Origin: an uncultured Defluviitaleaceae bacterium
GTDB taxonomy: Bacteria > Bacillota > Clostridia > Lachnospirales > WRAX01
DNA: 64,000 bases
Assembly: GCA_964583165.1 (NCBI GenBank)
Contig: CAZOVK010000001.1
Location: 60,025 to 124,024, forward strand
Reading direction: 5' to 3'
Shown piece after piece: positions 42,317 to 64,000 of this stretch (its first letter is position 1; each line of letters begins with the position of its first letter). The position numbers and the translations under genes were made by a program. The notes beneath the pieces were generated by a model. That model was not told where the DNA came from, ran no database searches, and worked only from the letters and a program-made list of their open reading frames with translations.

Positions 42317-44305
42317 ATGAAGTACGCAAAAAGCATGAGCATCTATGTCATCATATTTGCTTTCATCATTCTTGCCGTTATCGCGCTCAAGATGGCGAAC
42401 CCGCTGACGGTTGAAACGCCTTACTCATATTCTGATTTAGTGCGTGATTTAGAGGCGAACCGCGTTAAAAAGGTTGAGCTTATCGGCGACCCCGATACGG
42501 TTTTCGCGGCAACGGCGGCTATTGCGCTTAAAACGGGCGACACCACATCAACAGAGAGCAACATCAAAACCGTTGAAGTCCTAGACGTCGCGGGATTCAT
42601 GGAGAAAATGAATGAATACGCGGCAAAGAACACCGATTTGGTTATCACAACCAAACTTCCGCCCAAAACAAACGCGCTGTTAAGCCTTATAACGCCGTTT
42701 ATCTTTCTGATTGTAGCCATTTTCATCATGGTGTTCATGGTTCAAACGATGCAAGGCGCGGGTGGTAATGGGCGCGGCGTGATGAACTTTGGTAAGAGCA
42801 AGGCACGTGTCAGCACAGACGAGAAGAAGCGCGTCACGTTTGAGCAAGTCGCGGGGCTTGACGAAGAAAAGGCAGAGCTTGCCGAAATAGTTGAGTTTTT
42901 GAAAGCGCCCAAAAAATTTACTGACATTGGCGCAAGAATACCTAAGGGCGTTCTGCTTGTAGGCCCTCCGGGTACGGGTAAAACCTATCTCGCGCGTGCT
43001 TGCGCGGGTGAAGCGGGCGTGCCGTTCTTTAGTATCTCTGGTTCTGACTTCGTTGAAATGTTCGTCGGCGTGGGCGCGTCACGCGTACGCGATTTGTTTG
43101 AACAGGCGAAAAAGAACAGCCCCTGTATCATCTTCATTGACGAAATTGACGCGGTTGGGCGCAGACGTGGCGCGGGCTTAGGCGGCGGTCACGACGAGCG
43201 CGAACAGACATTAAACCAATTGCTCGTTGAAATGGACGGTTTCGGCGTAAACGAGGGCATCATCATTGTCGCGGCGACAAACCGCCCCGACATACTTGAC
43301 CCGGCGCTATTACGTCCGGGGCGTTTTGACAGACAAGTAACCGTGGGCATACCCGACGCGAAAGGGCGCGAGGGCGTTCTCCGTGTTCATGCCAAGGGCA
43401 AACAGATTGCGGCTGAGGTAGACCTAAGACTGGTCGCCCAAACCACACCCGGTTTCACACCCGCCGATTTGGAGAATCTATTAAACGAAGCCGCACTGTT
43501 GGCGGCGCGTCACGACAAAACACAAATAGATATGACCGATTTGCGTCAAGCGCTCATAAAGGTTGGCGTAGGTACAGAGAAAAAGAGCCGCGTGGTTTCT
43601 GACCGCGACAGACGTATTACCGCTTACCACGAAGCCGGTCACGCGATTCTGCACGAGGTTCTGCCACAGCTTGAACCCGTTCACATCGTGTCCGTAATAC
43701 CGACGGGGCGTGGAGCGGCGGGTTATACCATGTGGTTGCCGGGTGACGATAACAGCCACATAACGAAGAAGTTCCTGCAAGAAACGATAGTGGCCATGCT
43801 GGGCGGTCGCGCCGCCGAATTCCTTGTGATAGAAGACATCACAACAGGCGCCTCAAACGACATCGAACGCGCAACAAAAATGGCGCGTAACATGGTCACG
43901 AAGTTCGGTATGTCAGACGTGCTGGGGCCGATTCAGTTCGGCGATGACAACGACGAGGTATTTATCGGGCGCGATTTGGCGCATTCACGCAACTATGGCG
44001 AGGGTATCGCTAGTATGATAGACAGCGAAATCAAACGTATTGTTGACGATGCCTACCGCGAAGCCATCGAAATCCTCAGAAAGTATATGGACATAGTGCA
44101 TTCCTGCGCCGAGCTTTTGATTAAGAATGAGAAAATCACGGGTGATGAGTTCCGCGCTTTGTTCGGCGACAACCTACCCGATAAGTTGGTACCGCGCAAG
44201 GTCAACTTCATGGCTGAACCGTCAATAGACATTGCGCCTGAGCTTCCGAACACAGACACAACACCTGAAAACAAAGGCGGAAAGGACGATTATGCAGGGG
44301 TATAA
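42317..44305 (+). CDS. ftsH: ATP-dependent zinc metalloprotease FtsH
   Basis: Two TM segments, AAA+ [18 protein letters not shown], and zinc motif HEAGHA. Confidence 0.96.
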
Positions 44306-46523: not shown

Positions 46524-47414
46524 ATGTTTGGGATTGAGGATTTTCGGGCGTATTTGCACAAGCGAGGGCGTTCGCCGAACACATCTGACGCATACACGCG
46601 CGACGTGGCGAACTTTCTGGATTATCTCTACGAAAGTGGAGTTGACACGTCAAACGCAGTGAATGTCACGCGTACAGGTGTTTTGTCTTACATACTGCAT
46701 TTGCAGATAGAACAGCGTAGCCCTGCGTCTGTGTCGAGGGCGTTGGCGGCGATTAAGACGTTTTCTCGTTATGCCGTTGACAGCCGCGCGGGGGAGGTTG
46801 ACTTTGCGGCAGACATACAGCTACCACGTATTGACGCGAAAACGCCGACGGTTCTGACGGTTGATGAGGTGTTTAAGCTGATAAACTTCCCCGCGCAAAC
46901 GCCCGTAGATTTGCGCGACCGCGCAATGCTTACGTTGTTGTATGCTTGTGGGTTAAAGGTTACAGAAATGATACAGCTAGAAATCACGGACATTTACTCG
47001 ACTATGCAGTATGTTCGTTGCGGTGTTATGGGGCGATTGATTCCGTGTGCTTCGATTGCGTTTGAAGCCGTTGAGGAATATCGGGTGTTGCGTGATTCAA
47101 TCGCGCGTGATGATACGAAAAAGCTTATTTTAAGCGCGGCAGGCAAGCCCCTAACACGGCAAGGCGTTTGGAAACTGCTCAAACACCGCGCCGAACAATC
47201 AGAACTGGGTAATGCCGTAACGCCCAACGCGCTTAGAACGGCTTGTGCGCGTCACATGCTCGAAAACGGCGCGGAGGTTTCTGTTTTGCGCGAATTTCTG
47301 GGGCTGTCGTCAAAGGACGGCGCGTTACTCTCTATCAGCGCGGCGGGCGCAAAGATGCGTGACGTTTATAACAACAATCATCCACTTTCGGTTAGGGGTT
47401 TTAGCTTTGATTAG
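46524..47414 (+). CDS. XerD-like tyrosine-recombinase-fold protein with degenerate active site (probably non-catalytic)
   Basis: SAM-like N-domain (FRAYLHKRGRSPNTSDAYTRDVANFLDYL) and a recombinase-fold C-domain. Aligned by eye to XerD, Arg-I is K (GLKVTE), HxxR is NALR, LGH is LGL and the nucleophilic Tyr region is LLSISAA. Confidence 0.7.
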   Translation: MFGIEDFRAYLHKRGRSPNTSDAYTRDVANFLDYLYESGVDTSNAVNVTRTGVLSYILHLQIEQRSPASVSRALAAIKTFSRYAVDSRAGEVDFAADIQLPRIDAKTPTVLTVDEVFKLINFPAQTPVDLRDRAMLTLLYACGLKVTEMIQLEITDIYSTMQYVRCGVMGRLIPCASIAFEAVEEYRVLRDSIARDDTKKLILSAAGKPLTRQGVWKLLKHRAEQSELGNAVTPNALRTACARHMLENGAEVSVLREFLGLSSKDGALLSISAAGAKMRDVYNNNHPLSVRGFSFD

Positions 47415-48015
47415 TTTTGTACGCGGCGAGGTTGACTCAGTCGGCGACGGCTTCGCGGTTATTGACACGGGTGGCATTGGGTATAAGCTCAACATCACAA
47501 ATAGAACGGCCGCCACACTTGTTATCGGAGAAGTTGTGAAACTACAAACGTATATGTATATAAAGGAAGACGCTCTCGCGCTCTTTGGCTTTGAAAACGG
47601 TGACGAACTCGAGATGTTCACCATGTTACTGGGCGTGACGGGCATCGGCCCCAAGCTGGCGCTGGCGCTTTTGGGGTTCGCCACACCGTCACAGCTTATC
47701 ATGCAGATTGTTACGGAAGACACGGACGGTTTAGCCAAAGCCCAAGGCGTGGGCAAGCGCACGGCACAGCGCATTGTTATGGAACTAAAGGACAAACTCA
47801 AAAAACGAGACTTGGCGGCACTCACGGCGATAAAACCGCAAATAACGCTCGATAACCCATCAGCGGGCAAGAAACAAGACGCGCTCGACGCGCTGATTGC
47901 CTTAGGGTACAAGAAAGCCGAGGCCGCCGACGTACTCGCTGAACTCCCGTTTGACGGGCTTAACACAGAAGATTATATAAAACTCGCTCTGAAGAAAATA
48001 ATTTCTAAACGATAG
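47407..48015 (+). CDS. ruvA: Holliday junction DNA helicase RuvA
   Basis: (M)ISFVRGEV.., GIGYKLNI, and HhH motifs [14 protein letters not shown] and [13 protein letters not shown] 47407 overlaps the upstream stop. The longer track ORF is rejected. Confidence 0.9.
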
Positions 48016-55445: not shown

Positions 55446-55576
55446 ACGGATTGCCCTCCTTCTACATTCGATTCTGATAACCCTAGCGCTAGCCAATACC
55501 TCCAATATCCTTATAAATCCATACTAAAACCTTATCAAAAACTGTGATTATTCGTTAATTCAGTTCAGATAAACTT

Positions 55577-55605
55577 AATGTAGCATGATTGGGGGCACAA
55601 GTCAA
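55577..55605 (-). promoter_or_regulatory. Sigma-A-type promoter reading toward the AlkD-like gene
   Basis: The minus strand reads TTGACT, 17-nt spacer, TACATT. Confidence 0.55.
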
Positions 55606-55640
55606 GTTTTGCTGGCAGACGTGGCGAATCATGTATGTTA

Positions 55641-56144
55641 CTAATGCCAGTATAATGGAAGCCCTGCTCCTGTAAGTATACAAAACATTATTAAGGTCGT
55701 AATAGATATTGTTATGTAATATAATAACCTCCACATTTTAGTAATATAAATCTGAAAAGTTCCTAATGTAAAGACCAAACAAACAGCCAAAACTATAATC
55801 AAATGCCAAGTTGGATGGTAAAAATAATACGAATCTGGCGGGAACCAATTATCAAGTATCTCCCACCCGTTTTCTTTTTTGGGCGTGAGCAAGCTATTGG
55901 TGACAGAAAAAATCACACACCAAGCTACTGTGCTACAAAGACGACACAATACTACTTCTCCGAAAGATTTAAATGAGGTCAGCGAATGATTAATTGCTCT
56001 TTGTTTATTTATACCCAGAATTATTACGATAAGAATACTTTCGACTACAAAATAGAGCAAGAAATAAACGCCGACTTCGAGCATACCACAAAGAAGAAGT
56101 GTAAATAAATACATACAACACCCCATAAAAGAATAATTTCTCAT
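55641..56144 (-). CDS. Orphan multi-pass membrane protein (island cargo)
   Basis: 167-aa AT-rich ORF with 5 hydrophobic segments and a Trp/Tyr-rich loop (NWFPPDSYYFYHPTWH). No family recognised. Confidence 0.45.
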   Translation of the reverse strand: MRNYSFMGCCMYLFTLLLCGMLEVGVYFLLYFVVESILIVIILGINKQRAINHSLTSFKSFGEVVLCRLCSTVAWCVIFSVTNSLLTPKKENGWEILDNWFPPDSYYFYHPTWHLIIVLAVCLVFTLGTFQIYITKMWRLLYYITISITTLIMFCILTGAGLPLYWH

Positions 56145-56515
56145 ATACTTCGAAAGCTGCCAAGTTCAGCCCGACAGCTTTCGATAAAATGAATAGTACC
56201 CATTGTATTGGTTAGCGTCCGAAATCTATACAGGGATTTGAACCCTCATGCTTACCAAGATGCAATGAATCAAAGCAGTTTCTTACTCACAGTATATCAT
56301 CCGAATGAAACTCCGTCAAATCCATTTAGTCGCCAAACCAATATCAGTACCTCTGGTGAATATCCGTGCCTCACGTCGCCCGCCAGACTTATGAGCGAGA
56401 AAGTTCAATAACTTTTCAGCAAACTTATCGATAATTATGGCATACATTGCGATATTCCCGGTGCTTAGGGGTGTGAGCTTATGAAGAAAGAAAAACGGGC
56501 TTTTATGCCACATGA

Positions 56516-56728
56516 GAAATTGCATATAATGATGATATAATCGACTGTTTTGTGAATTCAGTTTATTTGTTTGATGACAAGCTTATTATTACCTATAATT
56601 TGACAAATGAAAAATCCGAACTCGAGGGCTCGGATTTAACGTTCTTGTACGCGTTGAATACGGGCGAGTGTTCGCCTATGACACACTCAAATGGAGATGA
56701 GGGGCGACTGTCTGTACTCTTGACTTAA
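56516..56728 (+). pseudogene. C-terminal remnant of a large serine recombinase gene
   Basis: An open frame without a start reads ..IIDCFVNSVYLFDDKLIITYNLTNEKSELEGSD.. This matches the conserved C-terminal tail (I..FV..IYLYDDK..ITFN) of phage/ICE serine recombinases as I recall it. Possible further fragments lie in other frames at 56412-56515. No catalytic domain is present. Confidence 0.5.
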
Positions 56729-56970
56729 TGCTTGATTGTGGTTACTGTTTATAGCTATTAAAGTCAAGGGACATTGTCAGTACTTACAAAGCTGTAATTT
56801 TCTTAAAATGTCTTATTTTTTTGCAACTGCAAACAAAGTAAAAGCAACGTCAATTTTTCCGACGTACTACGTGTCTTGTGTTCGCATTGTCTCCATAATT
56901 AGTAAAACACTACTGCCGAGTATAGCCTACAATCAAACGGTTTGCACAAACAGCAAACTTATCTAGTTGG

Positions 56971-57570
56971 TTAGGTTTTGCGAACTATATTTAACAAAAA
57001 GATAAAATCCTCTTTTCCGCTCCCTGTATATAATTCATCCGTGGTAATCTGGATTCTTTTATTTACAATAATTATTGAATGTATCGTTTCATTCGTGCTG
57101 ACTGAACGCACTATCCCTTCATATACTTTGTATCCGAAAAACTGTAGCATCGGATTCATGTAAGTCATATGGTTAGATATATAAATGTATCCTACAAGGA
57201 TCATTAAAAATAACAATACAAAGACATCTACAATATTATTTAGAGTTAATCCCAGACATGACAAGAGATAAATAGATATGTAATTAAAGTAAACACTTCC
57301 TGTCTGGTCTTCTACACTAACGATTTCATAGTAATGTGTACCACCATCTTTTTTAATGATAACTTTCAAATATAGACATGACACCACGCACAACAGTATC
57401 AGAATAATAATCGCATAATCATTTACTTCATCAAAGTATTTTGCTGTTATCAATTTCGACAACGAAAACACAAAACGCCCGCCATCTGTACAGCGCTCCA
57501 GTACATTCTTAATCACTAATAATATATATAACGGAACATAAGAAGAAATAAATAACAATATTCTTCTCAA
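56971..57570 (-). CDS. Four-TM membrane protein with a ~65-aa C-terminal soluble tail; putative membrane partner of the KwaB-like gene (KwaA-like role)
   Basis: TTG start at 57570 follows AAAGGGGGGAATAA. TM segments lie at about residues 4-24, 52-72, 93-110 and 113-131, then NHMTYMNPMLQFFGYKVYEGIVRSV... Co-directional with and immediately downstream of 57671-58537. Confidence 0.6.
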   Translation of the reverse strand: MRRILLFISSYVPLYILLVIKNVLERCTDGGRFVFSLSKLITAKYFDEVNDYAIIILILLCVVSCLYLKVIIKKDGGTHYYEIVSVEDQTGSVYFNYISIYLLSCLGLTLNNIVDVFVLLFLMILVGYIYISNHMTYMNPMLQFFGYKVYEGIVRSVSTNETIHSIIIVNKRIQITTDELYTGSGKEDFIFLLNIVRKT

Positions 57571-57670
57571 TTATTCCCCCCCTTTATACCTGCTTGGTAT
57601 TCCTGAATTGCAGATGCAATCATTTTGTTGCTTGTCAACGCATCTATAACATAGTGCCTTAAAAGCAAGT

Positions 57671-58537
57671 TTAAAATTTCTGGTATATCTTTTTTACACG
57701 ATAAATTATAACGCCTTCCGTAGATGTTATGAGAGTTAAACCAAATTCATTAATTATATTCGGTACTTCTGCTGTTTTTTTGGCAACTTCATCGAATCCT
57801 TTTGCCAGAATCACTTTTGTCAATCGTTTCAAATATCTGCCGTCAGATTCACAATCATCTACAAACTGAGCTGGATCTGCTAGTAATCCACTATCGCAGA
57901 TCATCTGAGAATTAGCATGTAATATCTTTATGAATACATCACTATATGCAAATATTGAGTTAAATATATTCCGATTGAAAACATAATAAGTGTCTCCAAG
58001 CAAAAACGCATCAACAGATGAATTTATCGTAATGATTTCATCCCTAAAGGGCTTTAACAATCCACCTGATAACACATATTTTTGGCTTGTCCTATATGCG
58101 GTTGATTGATGGGTGTACTTTTTGAATATATACAAAGACTTACCTTGAACATCGACCTGAATAACCATGAAATCAATTTTAGACAAATCCGTGTTTTTTG
58201 ATACTACGTTATCATCAGTGTATTTTATTGTTATTTGGCTTAGGACTTCATCACTGTGAATAACATCACTCTTGTCTACCATTTGTGTAGAATCGTCGAC
58301 AGATATATCCAAGTCGTAAGCATCTAAAGTCCTTTTTTCGATTTCGTTAATTATAAGGGTAAGAGAATCAATAATAACAGATTTGGCATCTTCAATTTCT
58401 GTTTTTAACATCTTCCCTCTGTATCGCTGTTTGCGATTATTATTTTGATCTACCAACATAATGTTTATTTCTGCCGTATTATCTTCTACGGCTTGGTTAA
58501 TAACACTTAGCTCTATTTTTAGTTCATCTTTCTCCAT
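57671..58537 (-). CDS. KwaB-like (DUF4868-like) soluble protein, zero-frame product; a -1 frame extension reaches 57567
   Basis: ATG 58537 follows TGGGGG. The segment DFMVIQVDVQGKSLYIFKKYT..LLKPFRDEIITINSSVDAFLLGDTYYVFNRNIFNSIFAY resembles the DUF4868 core as I remember it. The zero frame stops at 57671, 100 nt before the next gene. Confidence 0.6.
   Translation of the reverse strand: MEKDELKIELSVINQAVEDNTAEINIMLVDQNNNRKQRYRGKMLKTEIEDAKSVIIDSLTLIINEIEKRTLDAYDLDISVDDSTQMVDKSDVIHSDEVLSQITIKYTDDNVVSKNTDLSKIDFMVIQVDVQGKSLYIFKKYTHQSTAYRTSQKYVLSGGLLKPFRDEIITINSSVDAFLLGDTYYVFNRNIFNSIFAYSDVFIKILHANSQMICDSGLLADPAQFVDDCESDGRYLKRLTKVILAKGFDEVAKKTAEVPNIINEFGLTLITSTEGVIIYRVKKIYQKF
57689..57695 (-). other. 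A_AAA_AAG heptamer in the zero frame (candidate -1 frameshift site or homopolymer indel)
   Basis: The minus strand reads cgt gtA AAA AAG ata. The -1 frame continues KKDIPEILNLLLRHYVIDALTSNKMIASAIQEYQAGIKGGNN and stops at TGA 57569-57567, overlapping TTG 57570-57568. Confidence 0.5.
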
Positions 58538-58679
58538 TCGGATGCCCCCATTCATCTTCTAAAGTAGCACTTGTCGTTAATCTTAGTGAAATGACAACTT
58601 CTCTATATTGCCGTCATCACCTAGAAGCCAAGTTCTCTGTATCTTTCAAAACTCACAGCAACAGGAATATTTCAGCAAT

Positions 58680-58708
58680 ATTGTACACTAAGAATCTAAA
58701 AATGTCAA
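58680..58708 (-). promoter_or_regulatory. Near-consensus sigma-A promoter of the KwaB-like/membrane operon
   Basis: The minus strand reads TTGACA (58708-58703), 17-nt spacer, TACAAT (58685-58680), about 140 nt upstream of ATG 58537. Confidence 0.7.
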
Positions 58709-58901
58709 ATGTTTTGCTAGACGTCACTTTTCTATAATATTGTGTGTATTCGTAATCATAATAATTAACGCTCTCTTGTATTCAGGAAGTATTGTCTGTA
58801 TTTCGTAGGCATTCGTTTTTGTTCTATATTATTAACACAATGACAGTCACAAAGCTACACTTTGTTTTAACCACACTTACGAGCATATATTATTACCCAG
58901 A

Positions 58902-58931
58902 AGCCCCAGAGAATAAAATTTCTCTCGGGCT
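58902..58931. other. 12-bp imperfect hairpin in the divergent intergenic region
   Basis: AGCCCCAGAGAA-taaaat-TTCTCTCGGGCT (11 of 12 paired). There is no clear T tail on either strand. It lies directly 3' of a 32-codon minus-strand ORF (MDCRKKKFTDEAEMLENQRVVLVQLLSVSLMS). Confidence 0.4.
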
Positions 58932-59095
58932 TTCATGACATTAAACTCACTGAAAGGAGTTGAACCAACACAACCCGCTGATTTTCAAGCATTTCTGCCT
59001 CGTCAGTGAATTTTTTCTTGCGACAATCCATTGTATTATCGAAATGCTTATCTACTCGAGTTGGGATATGATTTATTTATCCTTAACTATAAGAG

Positions 59096-59368
59096 GTGAA
59101 TGCCATTGATGTAAGCGAACTAGATGTGTCATGTTTTAATGGCTGTTACAGAGATTTGGTTGAACTGATTGGGCATGACAATACGCTGATTCTTTACAGA
59201 GCTTATGCGGGTCAGTATGTTTCGTTTCCGAAGAAACTACTGGCAGACAGCTTTGTACATGAGCAGATTATCAAGGAATACAACAGCGTGAATGCCAAAG
59301 AACTAGCCAGAAAGTACGGTTATACATACAGCTGGATTATGAAGCTGATTAAAAAACTAAAAGACTGA
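59096..59368 (+). CDS. Mor-family transcription activator-like protein
   Basis: DLVELIGHDNTLILYRAYAGQYVSFPKK plus the C-terminal HTH-like NAKELARKYGYTYSWIMKLIKK resemble Mu Mor-family proteins. The GTG start has a poor RBS, so the exact start is uncertain. Confidence 0.55.
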   Translation: MNAIDVSELDVSCFNGCYRDLVELIGHDNTLILYRAYAGQYVSFPKKLLADSFVHEQIIKEYNSVNAKELARKYGYTYSWIMKLIKKLKD

Positions 59369-59380
59369 GGAGAGATTGTT

Positions 59381-59734
59381 ATGGCTAACAAGAGCTTTAT
59401 GTTGGCAAAACCCCTTGAAGCCGAAGAAGCCTTTGAGTATTTGAGAGCTAACCTGCGCTCCACAAAGGTTACATCCATTACCTATGACCCCAACATGAAA
59501 CGTGTTGACATAGGTGGGCGTTACCACAACTATCAATTGAGTTTTTATGGCAATCAAGTGACAGTTGCAACAAAGATTGTTCAGAAATGGTCTTACATAA
59601 TCATTGCATGTGCCGTTACTGGGCTGTTCCTCTTTATACCATTCATTATTGCTATAGTGATAGCCTTTATCGCAAACTCCGAGATTTCGGAACTAACTAC
59701 CCTTTTCCAGCAAACCCTCAATATGAAGCAATAG
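59381..59734 (+). CDS. Hypothetical C-terminally membrane-anchored protein
   Basis: Strong RBS GAGGAGAG. A 70-aa polar N-domain precedes a long hydrophobic segment (WSYIIIACAVTGLFLFIPFIIAIVIAFIA). Confidence 0.5.
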   Translation: MANKSFMLAKPLEAEEAFEYLRANLRSTKVTSITYDPNMKRVDIGGRYHNYQLSFYGNQVTVATKIVQKWSYIIIACAVTGLFLFIPFIIAIVIAFIANSEISELTTLFQQTLNMKQ

Positions 59735-59744
59735 GGCGATACAG

Positions 59745-59778
59745 TCTCAACCTCATTGGCGGGGTTGGGACTTTTTTT
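59745..59778 (+). terminator. Intrinsic terminator of the Mor-like operon
   Basis: TCTCAACC / GGTTGGGA 8-bp stem (one G-U pair) with a 10-nt loop, followed by cTTTTTTT. Confidence 0.7.
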
Positions 59779-59968
59779 GAGAAGAATCTAGGTATTCATT
59801 CGCCACTACAAAATCTTGGATATTCAACGGAAATTACAGGTAGTGACGAAGTAACGGGCATTTTTAAACTTTCCCCATTCACATACGCCACCACTCTATT
59901 TTTTATTTTTTTCGTTACTTCAGTACTACTTCACTATTGTACTTTTAGTTACATTCAATATTTGCTTC

Positions 59969-60005
59969 AAAAAAAGATAATGACAGTGGTTAACCTATCA
60001 TTATC
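59969..60005 (-). terminator. Probable terminator of the minus-strand DpnD-DUF1643 operon
   Basis: GATAATGA / TCATTATC 8-bp arms around a 14-nt loop containing GGTTAACC, followed on the minus strand by T7. It begins 16 nt after the last stop codon. Confidence 0.5.
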
Positions 60006-60021
60006 CCTTTTGCAACTTCAA

Positions 60022-60159
60022 TTACTTACGACGAACAGTTTTGCTAGTCTTTGTGGCTGTATAGAGCGTAACCCCTAACAAAGCTCCCTTTGTGAACATC
60101 TCCACAAAACCAACTGTTGCACTAGCTGTTGCCAATGACGCTATCCATACACTTAACAT
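60022..60159 (-). CDS. 45-aa hydrophobic peptide with a basic tail
   Basis: MLSVWIASLATASATVGFVEMFTKGALLGVTLYTATKTSKTVRRK. Its ATG overlaps the stop region of the preceding 30-codon ORF (ATGTTAA). Confidence 0.4.
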   Translation of the reverse strand: MLSVWIASLATASATVGFVEMFTKGALLGVTLYTATKTSKTVRRK

Positions 60160-60245
60160 GAAGCAACAACCCTTGAAGTAAATAGCATATCCATCCCATA
60201 CAATGCCACTAGAGCAAACGCAATACCACACAGAAAATAGACCAT
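60153..60245 (-). CDS. 30-aa hydrophobic peptide
   Basis: MVYFLCGIAFALVALYGMDMLFTSRVVASC. ATG 60245 lies 6 nt after GGGAG. Below the 60-aa cutoff of the ORF track. Confidence 0.4.
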   Translation of the reverse strand: MVYFLCGIAFALVALYGMDMLFTSRVVASC

Positions 60246-60275
60246 TATATCTCCCTCTGGAATGTTAATCACTTT

Positions 60276-60641
60276 CTAATCCCTCAAATCATCTAGCCAA
60301 TGCATAGGGGTTATTGCCATTGGAATGAATACATTTATACCAAACTCGTTGTTTCTTAGAAGTAGTGCGTTTACATATGCCATCTGCTCGCACTCTACAA
60401 TGCTTACATATTCGGGCAAGGCTACATCCAAGCAGACATTCAAAGCAATAGCGTCATCTATATCCCGAACATTTTGTAACACCAATACAAAGCCACCATC
60501 AGCCCTGTCTACATCACGAGTTGAGCCGTAGTTGTCGTCTAGTGCAATTACAATATTCAGAATGACTTGAAAGACTTCATTGGGAATATAGTCCTTGATT
60601 TCTTCAAGTTCAGCAACAGTTCCTACCTTATATATAGCACA
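60276..60641 (-). CDS. Hypothetical ~120-aa protein lacking a canonical start at its 5' end
   Basis: The frame is open from 60641 (..IYKVGTVAELEEIKDYIPNEVFQVILNIVIALDDNYGSTRDVD..), but the first ATG/GTG/TTG is TTG 60485. An RBS-preceded ATG at 60642 is out of frame, just before a (TA)4 tract. Confidence 0.4.
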   Translation of the reverse strand, partial: CAIYKVGTVAELEEIKDYIPNEVFQVILNIVIALDDNYGSTRDVDRADGGFVLVLQNVRDIDDAIALNVCLDVALPEYVSIVECEQMAYVNALLLRNNEFGINVFIPMAITPMHWLDDLRD

Positions 60642-60710
60642 TCACCCAACCTCTCATTGGAAAAGAAGTCCACATCATATTCCTATTACCTTAGAACGAG
60701 GCTATTATTT

Positions 60711-61253
60711 CTAGTTGCCGTTACCTTCGGGAGCTTCTGATTTCTTGTCAAATAGGTATTCTGGCAATACAAACTTTTCTAGCAACCAATGTTCCCGAAT
60801 CTGAGGAGCAAGTGGATGAAAGCCATATTCACCGTTTACGCTCTGAATGTGATACAGCTTGTCGGCAAATGGTTTGAGCTTCTCAATCAAGCTTAGTTGC
60901 ACAAGCCTGACTTTCTTGTTATTCTCGCCGATTTTACCCCATGAGATGATTACCTTTTGGGAGCGTTCGGCTGATTTAAGGATTTGCTCAAGATTGGCGG
61001 AATCTAGTGCAATATCTCCTTTGGTGTCTAGCTTTGCAGAAATCTGGCTTGTCATATTGAGTATATCAACACCGCCTAGCCCTAACTTGGACAAATGATT
61101 GATTATGTACATTGTTGTGTAATCAAGCGCAACTGTATCAGCCATGCTGGGGTTTGTCATAATTATGTTTGCGATGGGCTTCTTATCATCCCACACCTTT
61201 CTGAGCAGATATCTATGTGTTCTGTCGTTACTGAAGATAGCTTCGGTTTTCAA
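60711..61253 (-). CDS. DUF1643-family protein
   Basis: FSNDRTHRYLLRKVW..IIMTNPSMAD..YGFHPL matches the DUF1643 signature (YRY.L.R.W, NPS.AD, HPL) as I recall it. TTG start without a clear RBS, so the start is uncertain. Confidence 0.7.
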   Translation of the reverse strand: MKTEAIFSNDRTHRYLLRKVWDDKKPIANIIMTNPSMADTVALDYTTMYIINHLSKLGLGGVDILNMTSQISAKLDTKGDIALDSANLEQILKSAERSQKVIISWGKIGENNKKVRLVQLSLIEKLKPFADKLYHIQSVNGEYGFHPLAPQIREHWLLEKFVLPEYLFDKKSEAPEGNGN

Positions 61254-61342
61254 AACATTTTTGTCGGTTACTATAGTTCATTCCCCCACTCATTTTGATT
61301 ATTCTTTAGCAAATCCAATTAGCAGATTTGCAAATACATGAA

Positions 61343-61519
61343 TCAGACATCGGCTACTTTTCTTGCATTGAATGTTACGCCTTGAAAGTCGCCACTGTCC
61401 AAAATTACATGCTCATCATGATACTGTTGTTCGGCTATGCGGAGTGCTTCTTCTGTTGATTCAGCTTCAATAACGAGCATTCCGGCAAGTGTTTCTTTAA
61501 TCTCAACCGTAAACTTCAT
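61343..61519 (-). CDS. DpnD/PcfM-like small protein
   Basis: The 58-aa ORF is below the track cutoff: MKFTVEIKETLAGMLVIEAESTEEALRIAEQQYHDEHVILDSGDFQGVTFNARKVADV. AGGAG RBS is present. The pattern (MKF.VEI.E.L...V.VEA...EEA......Y....I.LD..DF) fits DpnD/PcfM. Confidence 0.6.
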   Translation of the reverse strand: MKFTVEIKETLAGMLVIEAESTEEALRIAEQQYHDEHVILDSGDFQGVTFNARKVADV

Positions 61520-61735
61520 TTGAACCTTCTCCTTTCTTGTATGGTTTGGAATCGAAACTTAAAAAAGCTTGACTATCATGCGATTGATTCAAGTAAATAA
61601 TATATTCTTGTGATGTTGTTAGGTACTATTTATATGAACTAATGTGTATATTTGAATGCTATTCCTCAACTATTGATTGTTATTGCAAAACGCATGACTG
61701 GACAGGAATAGGGCGTTATGCGCAATATAATTGCA

Positions 61736-61760
61736 ATATTGACAAAAATATTGTCATTAT
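61736..61760. promoter_or_regulatory. Operator-like inverted repeat in the divergent control region
   Basis: ATATTGACAA-aaata-TTGTCATTAT (9 of 10 symmetric), containing a TTGACA hexamer. An adjacent palindrome GCAAT-ATA-ATTGC (61722-61734) contains TATAAT. Confidence 0.4.
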
Positions 61761-61962
61761 TTCCGATCTACTGTTTATCCTTGTCGCATATAATAGTTAA
61801 GAGATGATTTCGATCCTTGCTAATATCCCGATTTTTCGGTCAGTGCTTTGACAAGAGAATACATCATCAGTGGTTAATATCGCTTTTATATCTAGCACTG
61901 GATTAAGCAGTCAACTTTTATACTATATATAAAACCATATAACAAGAATAGGGGAAAAAATT

Positions 61963-63756
61963 ATGCGTCTAATAATCAACAAGAGCAAACATGTATCGAC
62001 ACAATCTTCTACCACAACAACCGCTTCGACAGCTGGATCTAATGCGATGACTCAGGTTAAGCCCAAGCCATCAACTGGTTTATCGAGAACTTGCTCCAAA
62101 TGTCCAAAGCTCAAGCAGATGCTGGGATTGCAACTGAACAATCAACTTACAAGGCATGATTGGGAATTGGCTGTACGTTTACTTGTTGACAACGGATACA
62201 TTGCTCTTGCACGAGAGTTTTCACGCTTGTCATCAAAACATGACTTTAACAGCGAGAACTGGATTGACAGTTTGTTATCAAGAGATTATATTTACCCAGT
62301 GACTTGTGTTTCTCTAGGTTGTACAAAATTCAATGTGGGGAAATGCTGCGAACAGATTAAGTATAACGAGAGTAAAGCAATTATAAATTCACCAAATGAG
62401 CACATTAGGAGCAAAAGAGACTTTAACAAGACGTAGGCTTTTCATACAATGACAATGGGGTACTGAAGGGTTTGAATGCCAATCAGTTTATACCTCACAT
62501 CTTGGCAAACTTCGATAGTGCAATTAATAACAACAGTGTGTATTATATATATCTGAACGATTGTTGGAGAAGTGAAGAATTAAGCTTTATTCGTAGAATT
62601 CTAATGCGGTTTTTCGATTCGTTTGAGCGTGACCAATGGAACGAGCAGTATGAACGCAAGTACTTGCACCAGTTACCGCTTTGCGCCCCCAAGACAGAGA
62701 ACCTAAGTGACGGCACCAAATATCTTAATCTAACCAATGGACTGTATGATCTTGATAAAATGGCTTTGGTTAAGCATGACAAGGGAATCTTCTCAACCGT
62801 TCACATCCCCATCGCTTACAACAGGAACGCAGAATGTCCTATATTCATGCATTTCTTGGATGATATATTTGAAGGTGATAAGGAACTTATCAAGCTCGTT
62901 CAAGAAATCATGGGGTATTGCTTGTGCCAATCATCACAAGCCCAGAAGTTCTTTATCTTTCTAGGCGGAGGAGCTAACGGCAAGTCGCTATTGTGCAATG
63001 TGATTGCGTCTATGGTCGGTAAAGATAATGTTAGTAGTGTATCTTTGAGACAGCTTAGCGGACAGTTTGACACGTCTGATATGGTGGGGAAACTGGTTAA
63101 CATTTCCACAGAAAACGAGATGAACGGGATGAAAGTCGACACCGAAATTCTCAAAGCTATATCTGCGGGTGACAAAATCAATGTTCAGCGAAAATACAAA
63201 GACGCTTTTACGACTACAATTACCGCTAAACTTATCTTTGCCGTTAACCAGCTCCCAAACTCCCAAGACACCACAGAAGCTTTTTTCCGCAGACTGATTA
63301 TTGTCCCCTTCAACAGAACCTATGTTGAAGAACACGCCAATGAATATCTGGGAAAAATTGACACAACACTAGAACCAAGGATTCTCAAAGAGCGTGAAGG
63401 CATTCTCAATTTCGCGCTTCAAGGTTATGAGAGGTTAAAAGCAAGCGGTTTCTATTTTACTAAAGCTAGCAAGTCACTCGATATTTTAGATGAATACCAA
63501 CAAGCACTGAATCCAATTCAAATGTTTGTTGACGAATGTATAGAGGAGTTCTCAAGACCCCTCGAAAAAAACAGCAATAGGATTGCGTTAGACGAGCTGT
63601 ATGAGTGTTATGGTTGTACCACAGTTCAATTATGAATACAAGCTCTTTGACTCTATTATGTACTTTTCTTTACAAATTAGTTCAAAAACTGGAGATATAT
63701 TGTTATTGTATAATGGAATTGCTATATTATCATGTTACCATTTTACACCTCTTTGA
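61963..63756 (+). pseudogene. Phage/plasmid primase, P4 family (D5-type NTPase), split across three reading frames
   Basis: ORF 62472-63635 has the P4-family C-terminal helicase-primase pattern (Walker A GGGANGKS, VNISTE, FRRLIIVPF). Its frame is open back to 62427 and overlaps ORF 61963-62436 by 10 nt in the -1 frame. A third frame (63592-63756) continues past the 63635 stop. Confidence 0.65.
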
Positions 63757-63849
63757 TCTTACTTCAAGGAAAATCCCTATATATATTAGCAAATTTTATT
63801 TCAACTGTAATGCGTCAAGTGTATTAAGTTTTGACTATATGTTAAAACA

Positions 63850-63875
63850 AGGCAGCCAAAGCCGCCTAGATTTTG
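63850..63875. terminator. Possible bidirectional terminator hairpin
   Basis: AGGCAGC-caaa-GCCGCCT (one mismatch), followed by agaTTTT on the plus strand and TTGTTTT on the minus strand. Confidence 0.45.
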
Positions 63876-64000
63876 GGTATATCATAGAGTATGGCAATCT
63901 GGCTATGCAATCGATGCATGCTAGATTATGTATCGCAGGTAATTACGTTTTGAATTGTCCGATAATATGCGCGTCAACTCTATAGTATCTGTCAAAAATA

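What the first reader, a model, noticed from the sequence alone, without database searches (positions are those of the whole stretch)
57567..57697. A_AAA_AAG heptamer in frame: a -1 shift adds 40 protein-like codons ending in a TGA that overlaps the next gene's start
The zero frame reads cgt gtA AAA AAG ata tac cag aaa ttt taa and stops 100 nt before the membrane gene. The heptamer A_AAA_AAG (57695-57689) is in the X_XXY_YYZ register used by dnaX and IS3-family elements. The -1 frame reads KKDIPEILNLLLRHYVIDALTSNKMIASAIQEYQAGIKGGNN. This is non-repetitive and amphipathic, and it ends at TGA 57569-57567, overlapping TTG 57570-57568 as TTGA. That closes the otherwise unexplained 100-nt gap. The extension therefore looks like genuine coding sequence. 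Three readings are possible: programmed -1 frameshifting giving short and long isoforms, an inactivating A7-to-A6 mutation, or a homopolymer sequencing error.
Basis: partly seen in the sequence, partly recalled or inferred. Interest (0 to 1): 0.6.

Follow-up and report, generated by a model that had tools for sequence, protein, structure and literature searches.

The report
One-base frame break in Kiwa kwaB
The "slippery" A_AAA_AAG site marks a one-base deletion (or base-calling error) that breaks kwaB, a known anti-phage defence gene that is a single uninterrupted gene in all 109 relatives found, so this is an ordinary broken gene and not programmed frameshifting.

Summary
The interesting interpretation is not supported.

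- **What the genes are.** The two minus-strand genes form a Kiwa anti-phage operon: kwaB (58537..57567 once the frame is repaired) followed by kwaA (57570..56971).
- **The extension is real coding sequence.** The 40 codons in the -1 frame are the genuine KwaB C-terminus. The Pfam KwaB domain runs straight across the break. This stretch is the most conserved part of the family.
- **Relatives are unbroken.** All 109 other homologues encode one continuous protein; the complete ones are about 316-328 aa, apart from three with N-terminal extensions.
- **The heptamer is not conserved.** Orthologues read GGA AAA GAG GAT, GGT AAA GAA GAT and similar at this site. No other family member breaks here.
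- **No stimulator.** There is no upstream Shine-Dalgarno-like element, no downstream structure at a useful distance, and no Rfam match.
- **Origin of the site.** Losing one base from GTA AAA GAA GAT or from GTA AAA AAA GAT produces exactly the observed sequence.

The lesion is therefore a very recent real mutation in a defence gene on a low-GC mobile island, which I favour slightly, or a consensus error. No reads and no second strain were available to decide between these. Weak unprogrammed slippage on the heptamer could restore a trace of full-length KwaB. Interest is low.

The parts
57689..58537 (-). kwaB, 5' part in the zero frame (283 codons, MEKDELK...IIYRVKK). As the sequence is written, this ORF runs on to TAA 57673-57671.
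   Evidence: ORF list. Pfam PF16162 KwaB scores 79 bits against a cut-off of 26.3, plus PADLOC KwaB models. Identical to the 288-aa NCBI-derived protein P0001. The start at 58537 aligns with the orthologues' MKKDDIK.
57689..57695 (-). A_AAA_AAG heptamer, which is the site of the one-base frame break (an A6 run followed by G).
   Evidence: Sequence. The tblastn segments of all orthologues switch frame here. Orthologue DNA at this position is in frame and lacks the A_AAA_AAG heptamer in this register.
57671..57688 (-). Out-of-frame tail of the truncated product (IYQKF plus TAA). It is not homologous to anything in the family.
   Evidence: In alignment A1 only P0001 ends IYQKF. All the others continue with DIPE(L/I)LNLLLRHYVIDALT.
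57567..57689 (-). kwaB, 3' part in the -1 frame: 40 codons plus TGA, encoding the conserved C-terminal helix and tail of KwaB.
   Evidence: The Pfam KwaB domain spans residues 124-308 of the repaired protein, covering profile positions 1-186 of 186, so it crosses the break. Near-invariant columns D290-Y320. pN is 0.05-0.10 with saturated synonymous sites against orthologues of 58-71% identity. Modelled helix 288-308 has pLDDT about 90, and the whole model matches solved KwaB structures end to end.
56971..57570 (-). kwaA, an intact 199-aa membrane protein. Its TTG start overlaps the kwaB TGA.
   Evidence: PADLOC KwaA models, best E 1.8e-26. It is 56-72% identical to orthologue KwaA (60-72% to the five closer ones); alignments span residues 1-192 of proteins 193-203 aa long. 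Three strong hydrophobic segments.
57576..57582 (-). G7 run. It encodes the conserved KwaB 'GG' and acts as the Shine-Dalgarno sequence for kwaA, 5 nt upstream of the TTG.
   Evidence: Junction comparison: orthologues have AAAGGAGG or AGAGGAGG at the same place. The run is in frame with the orthologues' KGG, so this G7 was read without a frame error.
58680..58708 (-). Promoter-like site TTGACA-17-TACAAT upstream of kwaB (consensus match only).
   Evidence: Best-scoring site in the scan, 11 of 12 positions. The total number of sites in the region is no higher than in shuffles.

Best explanation
The locus is a Kiwa anti-phage operon, kwaB followed by kwaA, carried on a low-GC mobile island in an uncultivated-type Clostridia genome. 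kwaB has lost one base at 57689-57695 relative to the single ORF found in every relative. The loss was either the G of GTA AAA GAA GAT or one A of GTA AAA AAA GAT.

I take this to be a real and very recent inactivating mutation. Ribosomes terminate six codons later. The product lacks the last conserved helix and the C-terminal tail of the DUF4868 domain. Termination 100 nt upstream also removes the stop/start overlap with kwaA that the operon normally has.

The A_AAA_AAG heptamer is a by-product of the deletion in a Lys-rich, AT-rich context. It is not an evolved recoding signal. At most it allows a small amount of unprogrammed -1 slippage, which would happen to restore full-length KwaB.

Shown: the gene identities, the exact break point, the conservation of the lost part, and the absence of the feature in relatives. 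Inferred: that the lesion is in the DNA and not only in the assembly, and that it causes loss of function.
For: - **Gene identity.** KwaB and KwaA HMM matches. The repaired protein's model matches KwaB structures 9mrx_D, 9nyu_A and 9mtn over about 320 columns, E 3e-11.
- **Relatives are unbroken.** All 109 other homologues are single ORFs; the complete ones are about 316-328 aa, apart from three with N-terminal extensions. Only the window's own protein is truncated at this site.
- **Break point.** The frame switch lies exactly at the A-run.
- **The lost part is conserved.** The lost 40 aa are the most conserved stretch of the family. pN is 0.05-0.10 there against 0.17-0.26 upstream for orthologues of 58-71% identity, and 0.34 against 0.43 for the 39% relative, with synonymous sites saturated.
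- **Assembly quality.** The window holds 49 homopolymer runs of 6 or more bases and 14 of 7 or more. The roughly 50 long, tightly packed ORFs of 1-54 kb show no other sign of a frame break, and five suspicious ORF overlaps turned out to be distinct intact genes. An A7 and a G7 inside kwaB itself are read in frame.
- **Context.** The gene sits on a 32-41% GC island carrying Mor, DUF1643, DpnD/PcfM and D5-type primase-helicase genes. By general knowledge, defence genes in such settings are often gained and lost.
- **Lesions elsewhere in the family.** Three other family entries have aberrant C-termini at other positions.
- **Published function.** Both kwaA and kwaB are needed for defence, and the KwaB C-terminal region mediates the dimer-of-dimers contact (bioRxiv 10.1101/2023.02.26.530102).
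Against: - Nothing downstream of the break has decayed. The 40 codons are open and conserved, and kwaA is intact. A sequencing error would look exactly the same.
- The site is a homopolymer, the classic place for indel errors.
- The genome is a singleton. The nearest FtsH is 66% identical and the named relatives are MAGs. No second strain and no reads could be consulted.
- Loss of function from removing the last 40 residues is inferred from conservation, not tested.
Confidence: 0.52

Rival explanations
1. Sequencing or assembly error. The real genome has one more base in this run, kwaB is an intact 323-codon gene, and the Kiwa system works.
For: - The break lies in a homopolymer.
- The downstream frame is perfectly preserved and kwaA is intact.
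- The source is probably a draft genome or MAG, given the 176-kb contig, the singleton lineage and MAG relatives.
Against: - No other frame break is evident across about 60 genes and 49 homopolymer runs of 6 or more bases. By the rule of three, that puts the per-run error rate below about 6%.
- The harder A7 and G7 runs inside the same gene are read in frame.
Confidence: 0.36
2. Programmed -1 ribosomal frameshifting on A_AAA_AAG, of the dnaX or IS3 type, giving a short KwaB of 288 aa and a long KwaB of 323 aa in a set ratio.
For: - The heptamer is among the most efficient bacterial heptamers when stimulators are present, and it lies in the correct register (PMC4066793).
- The shifted product is exactly the family's full-length protein.
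Against: - None of the 109 homologues has the two-frame arrangement, and the heptamer is absent from the orthologue DNA.
- No SD-like sequence lies 10-14 nt upstream. The only downstream hairpin starts about 20 nt after the heptamer, beyond the zero-frame stop.
- The region folds no better than shuffled sequence (z = -0.82).
- No Rfam match at E up to 1 on either strand.
- Without stimulators, heptamers gave only 2.1-10 times a background of about 0.055% in E. coli reporters (PMC4066793).
- The short form would lack the most conserved part of the protein.
Confidence: 0.03
3. Phase variation. The A-run is a contingency tract that switches Kiwa on (A7) and off (A6) by slipped-strand mispairing.
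For: The frame break lies in a homopolymer inside a defence gene. From general knowledge, some restriction-modification genes are switched this way.
Against: - A run of 6-7 bases is short for a contingency tract; from general knowledge, 8 or more is typical.
- Orthologues have no tract here (AAA GAG, AAA GAA or AAA GAT), so it is not an evolved feature.
- Strain polymorphism could not be tested.
Confidence: 0.06
4. A functional 'split KwaB', with the protein made as two polypeptides. About 0.7% of Kiwa loci (70 of 9,797) have KwaB as two genes.
For: Split KwaB systems are described, 70 of 9,797 loci (bioRxiv 10.1101/2023.02.26.530102).
Against: - The described splits correspond to the Rossmann-like and DUF4868 domains.
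- Here the break is at residue 283 of 323, at the start of the last helix.
- The only possible second ORF is 33 aa, starting at TTG 57668, with no Shine-Dalgarno sequence in front.
Confidence: 0.01

Closest known systems
Kiwa anti-phage defence system (KwaA membrane protein plus KwaB DUF4868 protein; E. coli O55:H7, ECOR8 and ECOR49 systems; PDB 9mrx, 9nyu, 9mtn)
   Same: - Two-gene cassette.
- KwaB matches PF16162 and the PADLOC KwaB models. Its predicted fold matches solved KwaB over its full length.
- KwaA matches the PADLOC KwaA models and has multiple hydrophobic helices.
- It sits on a mobile island, as do more than half of published Kiwa loci.
   Different: - It is only about 15% identical to E. 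coli KwaB. There was no sequence-level PDB hit.
- The gene order is kwaB then kwaA, with a TTGA overlap, in this clade. The E. coli system is usually drawn kwaA then kwaB; that is from my memory and the paper did not settle it.
- kwaB carries a one-base frame break, so as written the system is incomplete.
dnaX and IS3/IS911-type programmed -1 frameshift sites
   Same: Identical heptamer, A_AAA_AAG, in the X_XXY_YYZ register. A -1 shift yields a longer, biologically sensible product.
   Different: - No upstream SD-like element and no downstream stem-loop or pseudoknot.
- No conservation in orthologues.
- In dnaX the shift gives a shorter product with a defined role, and in IS elements it fuses two conserved ORFs in every copy. 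Here the two-frame layout exists in a single sequence.
Adventitious 'correction' of indels by slippage at A-rich heptamers (for example C_AAA_AAA in pDEST17, PMC1851650; reviewed in PMC5009743)
   Same: A one-base deletion next to a run of A's could be partly suppressed by -1 slippage of tRNA-Lys, giving some correct-length protein.
   Different: - The published case was measured under strong over-expression in E. coli, at 25-60%.
- Nothing was measured here.
- Reporter values for heptamers without stimulators are well under 1%.

Membership tests
Kiwa defence system | KwaB protein with the DUF4868 / PF16162 domain | tested here: met
   Pfam KwaB E 6e-22, 79 bits against a cut-off of 26.3, covering profile positions 1-186 of 186 on the frame-repaired protein. 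Six PADLOC KwaB models match. Foldseek matches to KwaB structures at E 3e-11, probability 1.00.
Kiwa defence system | Adjacent KwaA integral membrane protein (four TM helices in the solved structure) | tested here: met
   Thirteen PADLOC KwaA models match, best E 1.8e-26. It is 56-72% identical to the genes called PF28043 KwaA next to orthologous kwaB (60-72% for the five closer ones). A hydropathy scan finds three strong segments; a fourth did not reach my threshold.
Kiwa defence system | Both genes intact (a complete system) | tested here: not met
   kwaB is interrupted by a one-base frame break at 57689-57695. As written, the product lacks the last 40 conserved residues. kwaA is intact.
Kiwa defence system | Protection against phage or conjugation | not testable with these tools
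   This needs a plaque or conjugation assay comparing the A6 allele with the repaired allele.
Programmed -1 ribosomal frameshift site (dnaX / IS3 type) | Slippery heptamer X_XXY_YYZ in the zero-frame register | tested here: met
   A_AAA_AAG at 57695-57689, with codons GTA AAA AAG.
Programmed -1 ribosomal frameshift site (dnaX / IS3 type) | Stimulatory element: an SD-like sequence about 10-14 nt upstream and/or a stable structure 5-9 nt downstream | tested here: not met
   - The upstream 16 nt are UUAUAAUUUAUCGUGU.
- The nearest GGAAGG ends 18 nt upstream of the heptamer.
- The downstream hairpin begins about 20 nt after the heptamer, beyond the zero-frame stop.
- The fold has z = -0.82, and 40 of 200 shuffles fold as well.
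- No Rfam match at E up to 1 on either strand.
Programmed -1 ribosomal frameshift site (dnaX / IS3 type) | The heptamer and the two-frame organisation are conserved among orthologues | tested here: not met
   All 109 homologues are single ORFs. DNA from six distinct orthologues reads AAA GAG, AAA GAA, AAA GAT, AAA AAG or AAA AAA in frame. The shorter database entries are N-terminally cut or broken at other positions.
Programmed -1 ribosomal frameshift site (dnaX / IS3 type) | Both products are made at a reproducible ratio | not testable with these tools
   This needs a reporter assay or proteomics on a verified A6 template.
Split KwaB (two-gene KwaB) | A split between the Rossmann-like and DUF4868 domains, with each part a separately initiated gene | tested here: not met
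   The break is at residue 283 of 323, at the start of the last helix. The second piece has no ATG and no SD; there is only a 33-codon TTG ORF.
Homopolymer phase-variable (contingency) gene | A long mutable tract that is maintained in relatives and varies in length between cells or strains | tested here: inconclusive
   The tract is only A6 and orthologues have no tract, which argues against this reading. Length variation could not be examined, because no reads or sister strains were found.

The most novel reading that the evidence does not exclude
The A6 allele is real, and the deletion-created A_AAA_AAG heptamer lets ribosomes slip -1 often enough to make both a truncated KwaB and a full-length KwaB. 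Kiwa would then be kept at a low, possibly less costly, level. Alternatively the run toggles between A6 and A7 as an on/off switch for the defence system. Either would be the first reported case of recoding or phase variation controlling Kiwa.
Probability: 0.07. Interest if true: 0.5.

Novelty: new member of a known kind. Interest (0 to 1): 0.12.

Why it matters
It matters mainly for annotation. The 288-aa protein on record (P0001) is a truncated KwaB, and the 100-nt "gap" is coding sequence. The locus should be annotated as a frameshifted kwaB, or corrected if the reads show an error. Defence-system counts for this genome should treat Kiwa as possibly inactive.

It is also a clear example of how a one-base deletion in a Lys-rich, AT-rich gene can create a textbook slippery heptamer in the right register and so mimic programmed frameshifting. 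No new biology is implied unless reads confirm A6 and an assay shows substantial slippage.

Tried and rejected
- **Looking for the same DNA in other strains, to see the alternative allele.** Megablast against E. coli genomes, plasmids and phages found nothing. An exact 24-mer scan of genome, viral and metagenome contigs gave 0 hits. The search for related loci on genome contigs gave no confirmed locus.
- **Tracing the source record.** Exact-protein look-ups of P0001, KwaA and FtsH were not on record. The cluster look-up gave no accession. Sequencing technology and MAG status therefore remain unknown.
- **Sequence search of the PDB with the family profile.** No KwaB hit. Structure prediction followed by Foldseek was needed to find one.
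- **Searching the window for further frame breaks as a sign of a noisy assembly.** Five same-strand ORF overlaps turned out to be distinct intact genes: RsmB/RlmN, DUF2085, FtsH/NUDIX, XerD-like/RuvA and PurC.
- **Rejected: 'split KwaB'.** The position is wrong and the second piece has no start signal.
- **Rejected: transcriptional slippage.** From general knowledge, A6 is too short for appreciable RNA polymerase slippage. Not tested.
- **Searching the island for remnants of the genes that flank orthologous Kiwa cassettes.** Only kwaB and kwaA are shared.

Full report
**1. The observation**

On the minus strand the ORF 58555..57671 ends ...GVIIYRVKKIYQKF*. Its codons there read CGT GTA AAA AAG ATA TAC CAG AAA TTT TAA. 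The run is six A's (57695-57690) followed by G57689, so A_AAA_AAG sits in the X_XXY_YYZ register.

Reading from G57689 in the -1 frame gives 40 sense codons, DIPEILNLLLRHYVIDALTSNKMIASAIQEYQAGIKGGNN. The TGA at 57569-57567 overlaps the TTG start (57570) of the next ORF, 57570..56971. The zero-frame stop lies 100 nt before that gene. Every statement in the finding is correct.

**2. What the genes are**

With one base restored, the upstream protein matches Pfam PF16162 (KwaB) at 79 bits against a cut-off of 26.3. The match covers profile positions 1-186 of 186 and residues 124-308 of the protein, so it runs straight across the break at residue 289/290. Six PADLOC KwaB models also match.

The downstream 199-aa protein matches 13 PADLOC KwaA models, best E 1.8e-26. 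It has at least three strongly hydrophobic segments.

An AlphaFold2 model of the repaired protein has mean pLDDT 81. It matches the solved KwaB structures 9mrx_D, 9nyu_A and 9mtn over about 320 columns, at E 3e-11 and probability 1.00, despite only about 15% identity. A sequence-only search of the PDB had found nothing.

The locus is therefore a Kiwa anti-phage system. According to bioRxiv 10.1101/2023.02.26.530102, a KwaA tetramer in the membrane holds KwaB dimers, KwaB binds incoming phage DNA through DUF4868, and both genes are required for defence.

**3. Is the extension coding?**

Yes.

- A search of 5.8 billion protein clusters returned 110 proteins.
- The only 100% match is the truncated 288-aa protein from this same contig (P0001; NCBI, 176,036-bp contig).
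- The next hits are 71% identical or less. The complete ones are about 316-328 aa (three carry N-terminal extensions) and cover 96-98% of the repaired query.
- In the alignment, the segment after the break (D290 to Y320) is the most conserved part of the family, down to a relative of 39% identity. Only P0001 ends IYQKF.
- Codon-level comparison with five orthologues of 58-71% identity gives pN 0.05-0.10 in the extension against 0.17-0.26 upstream (0.34 against 0.43 for a sixth, 39% relative). Synonymous sites are saturated, with pS 0.67-0.98.
- tblastn of every orthologue gives two segments that change frame exactly at 57689-57695.

**4. Is the frame change a conserved, programmed feature?**

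No.

- Orthologue DNA at the site reads GGA AAA GAG GAT, GGT AAA GAA GAT, GGT AAA GAT GAT, GGT AAA AAG GAT or AAT AAA AAA GAA, always in frame.
- The shorter database entries are N-terminally cut. Three (P0095, P0104, P0105) have aberrant C-termini at other positions, and none breaks here.
- There is no SD-like element at a useful distance upstream.
- The only downstream hairpin starts about 20 nt after the heptamer, beyond the zero-frame stop.
- The 121-nt region folds no better than shuffled sequence (z = -0.82).
- Rfam has no match at E up to 1 on either strand.
- In E. coli reporters, heptamers without stimulators gave only 2.1-10 times a background of about 0.055% (PMC4066793).

A set ratio of isoforms is therefore not expected. 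A trace of accidental "correction" is possible. Much higher values were reported at C_AAA_AAA under over-expression (PMC1851650).

**5. Where the heptamer comes from**

The window sequence GTA AAA AAG AT can be derived by losing one base from GTA AAA GAA GAT, which encodes VKED; the family consensus is GKED. It can equally be derived from GTA AAA AAA GAT, which encodes VKKD. The slippery heptamer is thus a by-product of a deletion in a Lys-rich, AT-rich stretch. Any -1 shift at a one-base deletion automatically restores the frame.

**6. Real mutation or error?**

This cannot be decided without reads.

In favour of a real lesion:
- The window has 49 homopolymer runs of 6 or more bases and 14 of 7 or more, and none of 8 or more.
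- It has about 50 long, tightly packed ORFs with no other sign of a frame break. Five suspicious ORF overlaps proved to be distinct intact genes.
- An A7 (57781-57775) and a G7 (57582-57576) inside kwaB itself are in frame.

In favour of an error:
- The site is a homopolymer.
- Nothing downstream has decayed.
- The genome is a singleton from a poorly sampled Clostridia lineage. Its FtsH is at most 66% identical to anything else, and the named relatives are Clostridiales or Defluviitaleaceae MAGs.

I put a real recent mutation at about 0.5, an error at about 0.35, phase variation at about 0.06, programmed frameshifting at about 0.03, and a functional split at about 0.01.

**7. Consequences if the lesion is real**

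The truncated KwaB loses the confidently modelled helix 288-308 (MNGGIR-prefixed numbering of the model) and the conserved tail. In E. coli KwaB the C-terminal region forms the dimer-of-dimers contact. Loss of function is inferred, not shown.

In orthologues the kwaB stop overlaps or abuts the kwaA start: TTGA in L007, GTGA in L004, and gaps of 2-27 nt in the others. The SD for kwaA lies inside the KwaB 'KGG' codons. Premature termination 100 nt upstream would remove any translational coupling.

**8. Context**

From about 55.5 kb onward the GC content drops from about 48% to 32-41%. The region encodes a Mor-like activator, a DUF1643 protein, a DpnD/PcfM protein and a D5_N/DUF5906 primase-helicase. 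This is a mobile island, as for more than half of published Kiwa loci. The kwaB-kwaA cassette is the only part shared with the six orthologue contexts, whose flanks all differ.

**9. Verdict**

This is a new but ordinary member of the Kiwa family carrying a one-base frame break. The programmed-frameshift reading is not supported. Interest is low.

Noticed in passing
window 57567-57585 (minus strand); L001, L004, L005 and L007 junctions: The conserved C-terminal 'KGG' codons of KwaB (AAG GGG GGG here, AAA GGA GGA in orthologues) double as the Shine-Dalgarno sequence of kwaA. The kwaB stop overlaps the kwaA start as TTGA or GTGA in several members, so protein sequence and translation signal are constrained together.
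   Followed up: partly
window 56971-58537; loci L001-L012: In this KwaB clade the gene order is kwaB then kwaA in all six distinct contexts fetched. Their flanks are entirely different: Macro-domain gene, type I R-M, Dcm/Vsr, MatE and terminase neighbours. The two-gene cassette appears to move on its own.
   Followed up: partly
window 55500-64000: A low-GC island (32-41% against about 48% for the rest) carries a Mor-like activator (59096-59368), DUF1643 (60711-61253, minus), DpnD/PcfM (61343-61519, minus) and a D5_N/DUF5906 primase-helicase (62472-63635). It looks like an integrated satellite or phage-like mobile element. Its boundaries, integrase and att sites were not identified, and the window contains no tRNA gene.
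   Followed up: partly
window 56145-56970: An ORF-poor stretch of 826 nt lies directly downstream of kwaA. It contains three terminator-like hairpins on the minus strand (56958-56940, 56865-56847, 56637-56612) and only short ORFs with no Pfam or PHROG match. It could be decayed genes or regulatory DNA.
   Followed up: no
window 61963-63635: The 387-aa primase-helicase matches only the middle of long phage primase profiles (phrog_864 positions 227-575 of 1064). It is preceded by an unassigned 157-aa ORF 35 nt upstream. This may be a truncated or split primase, or simply a short architecture.
   Followed up: no
proteins P0095, P0104, P0105 (homologues, not in the window): Three other members of this KwaB clade have unrelated C-terminal tails that begin at different positions. 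This suggests sporadic frameshifts or assembly chimeras elsewhere in the family.
   Followed up: no
window 42317-44305 and the window as a whole: The host genome is a singleton. Its FtsH has no relative above 66% identity among 5.8 billion protein clusters, and the named relatives are Clostridiales or Defluviitaleaceae MAGs. The window comes from a poorly sampled Clostridia lineage.
   Followed up: partly
window 46524-48015: A XerD-like tyrosine recombinase gene (46524-47414) lies immediately upstream of ruvA. The long-start ORFs overlap by 170 nt, which is probably only an artefact of taking the first possible start codon.
   Followed up: no
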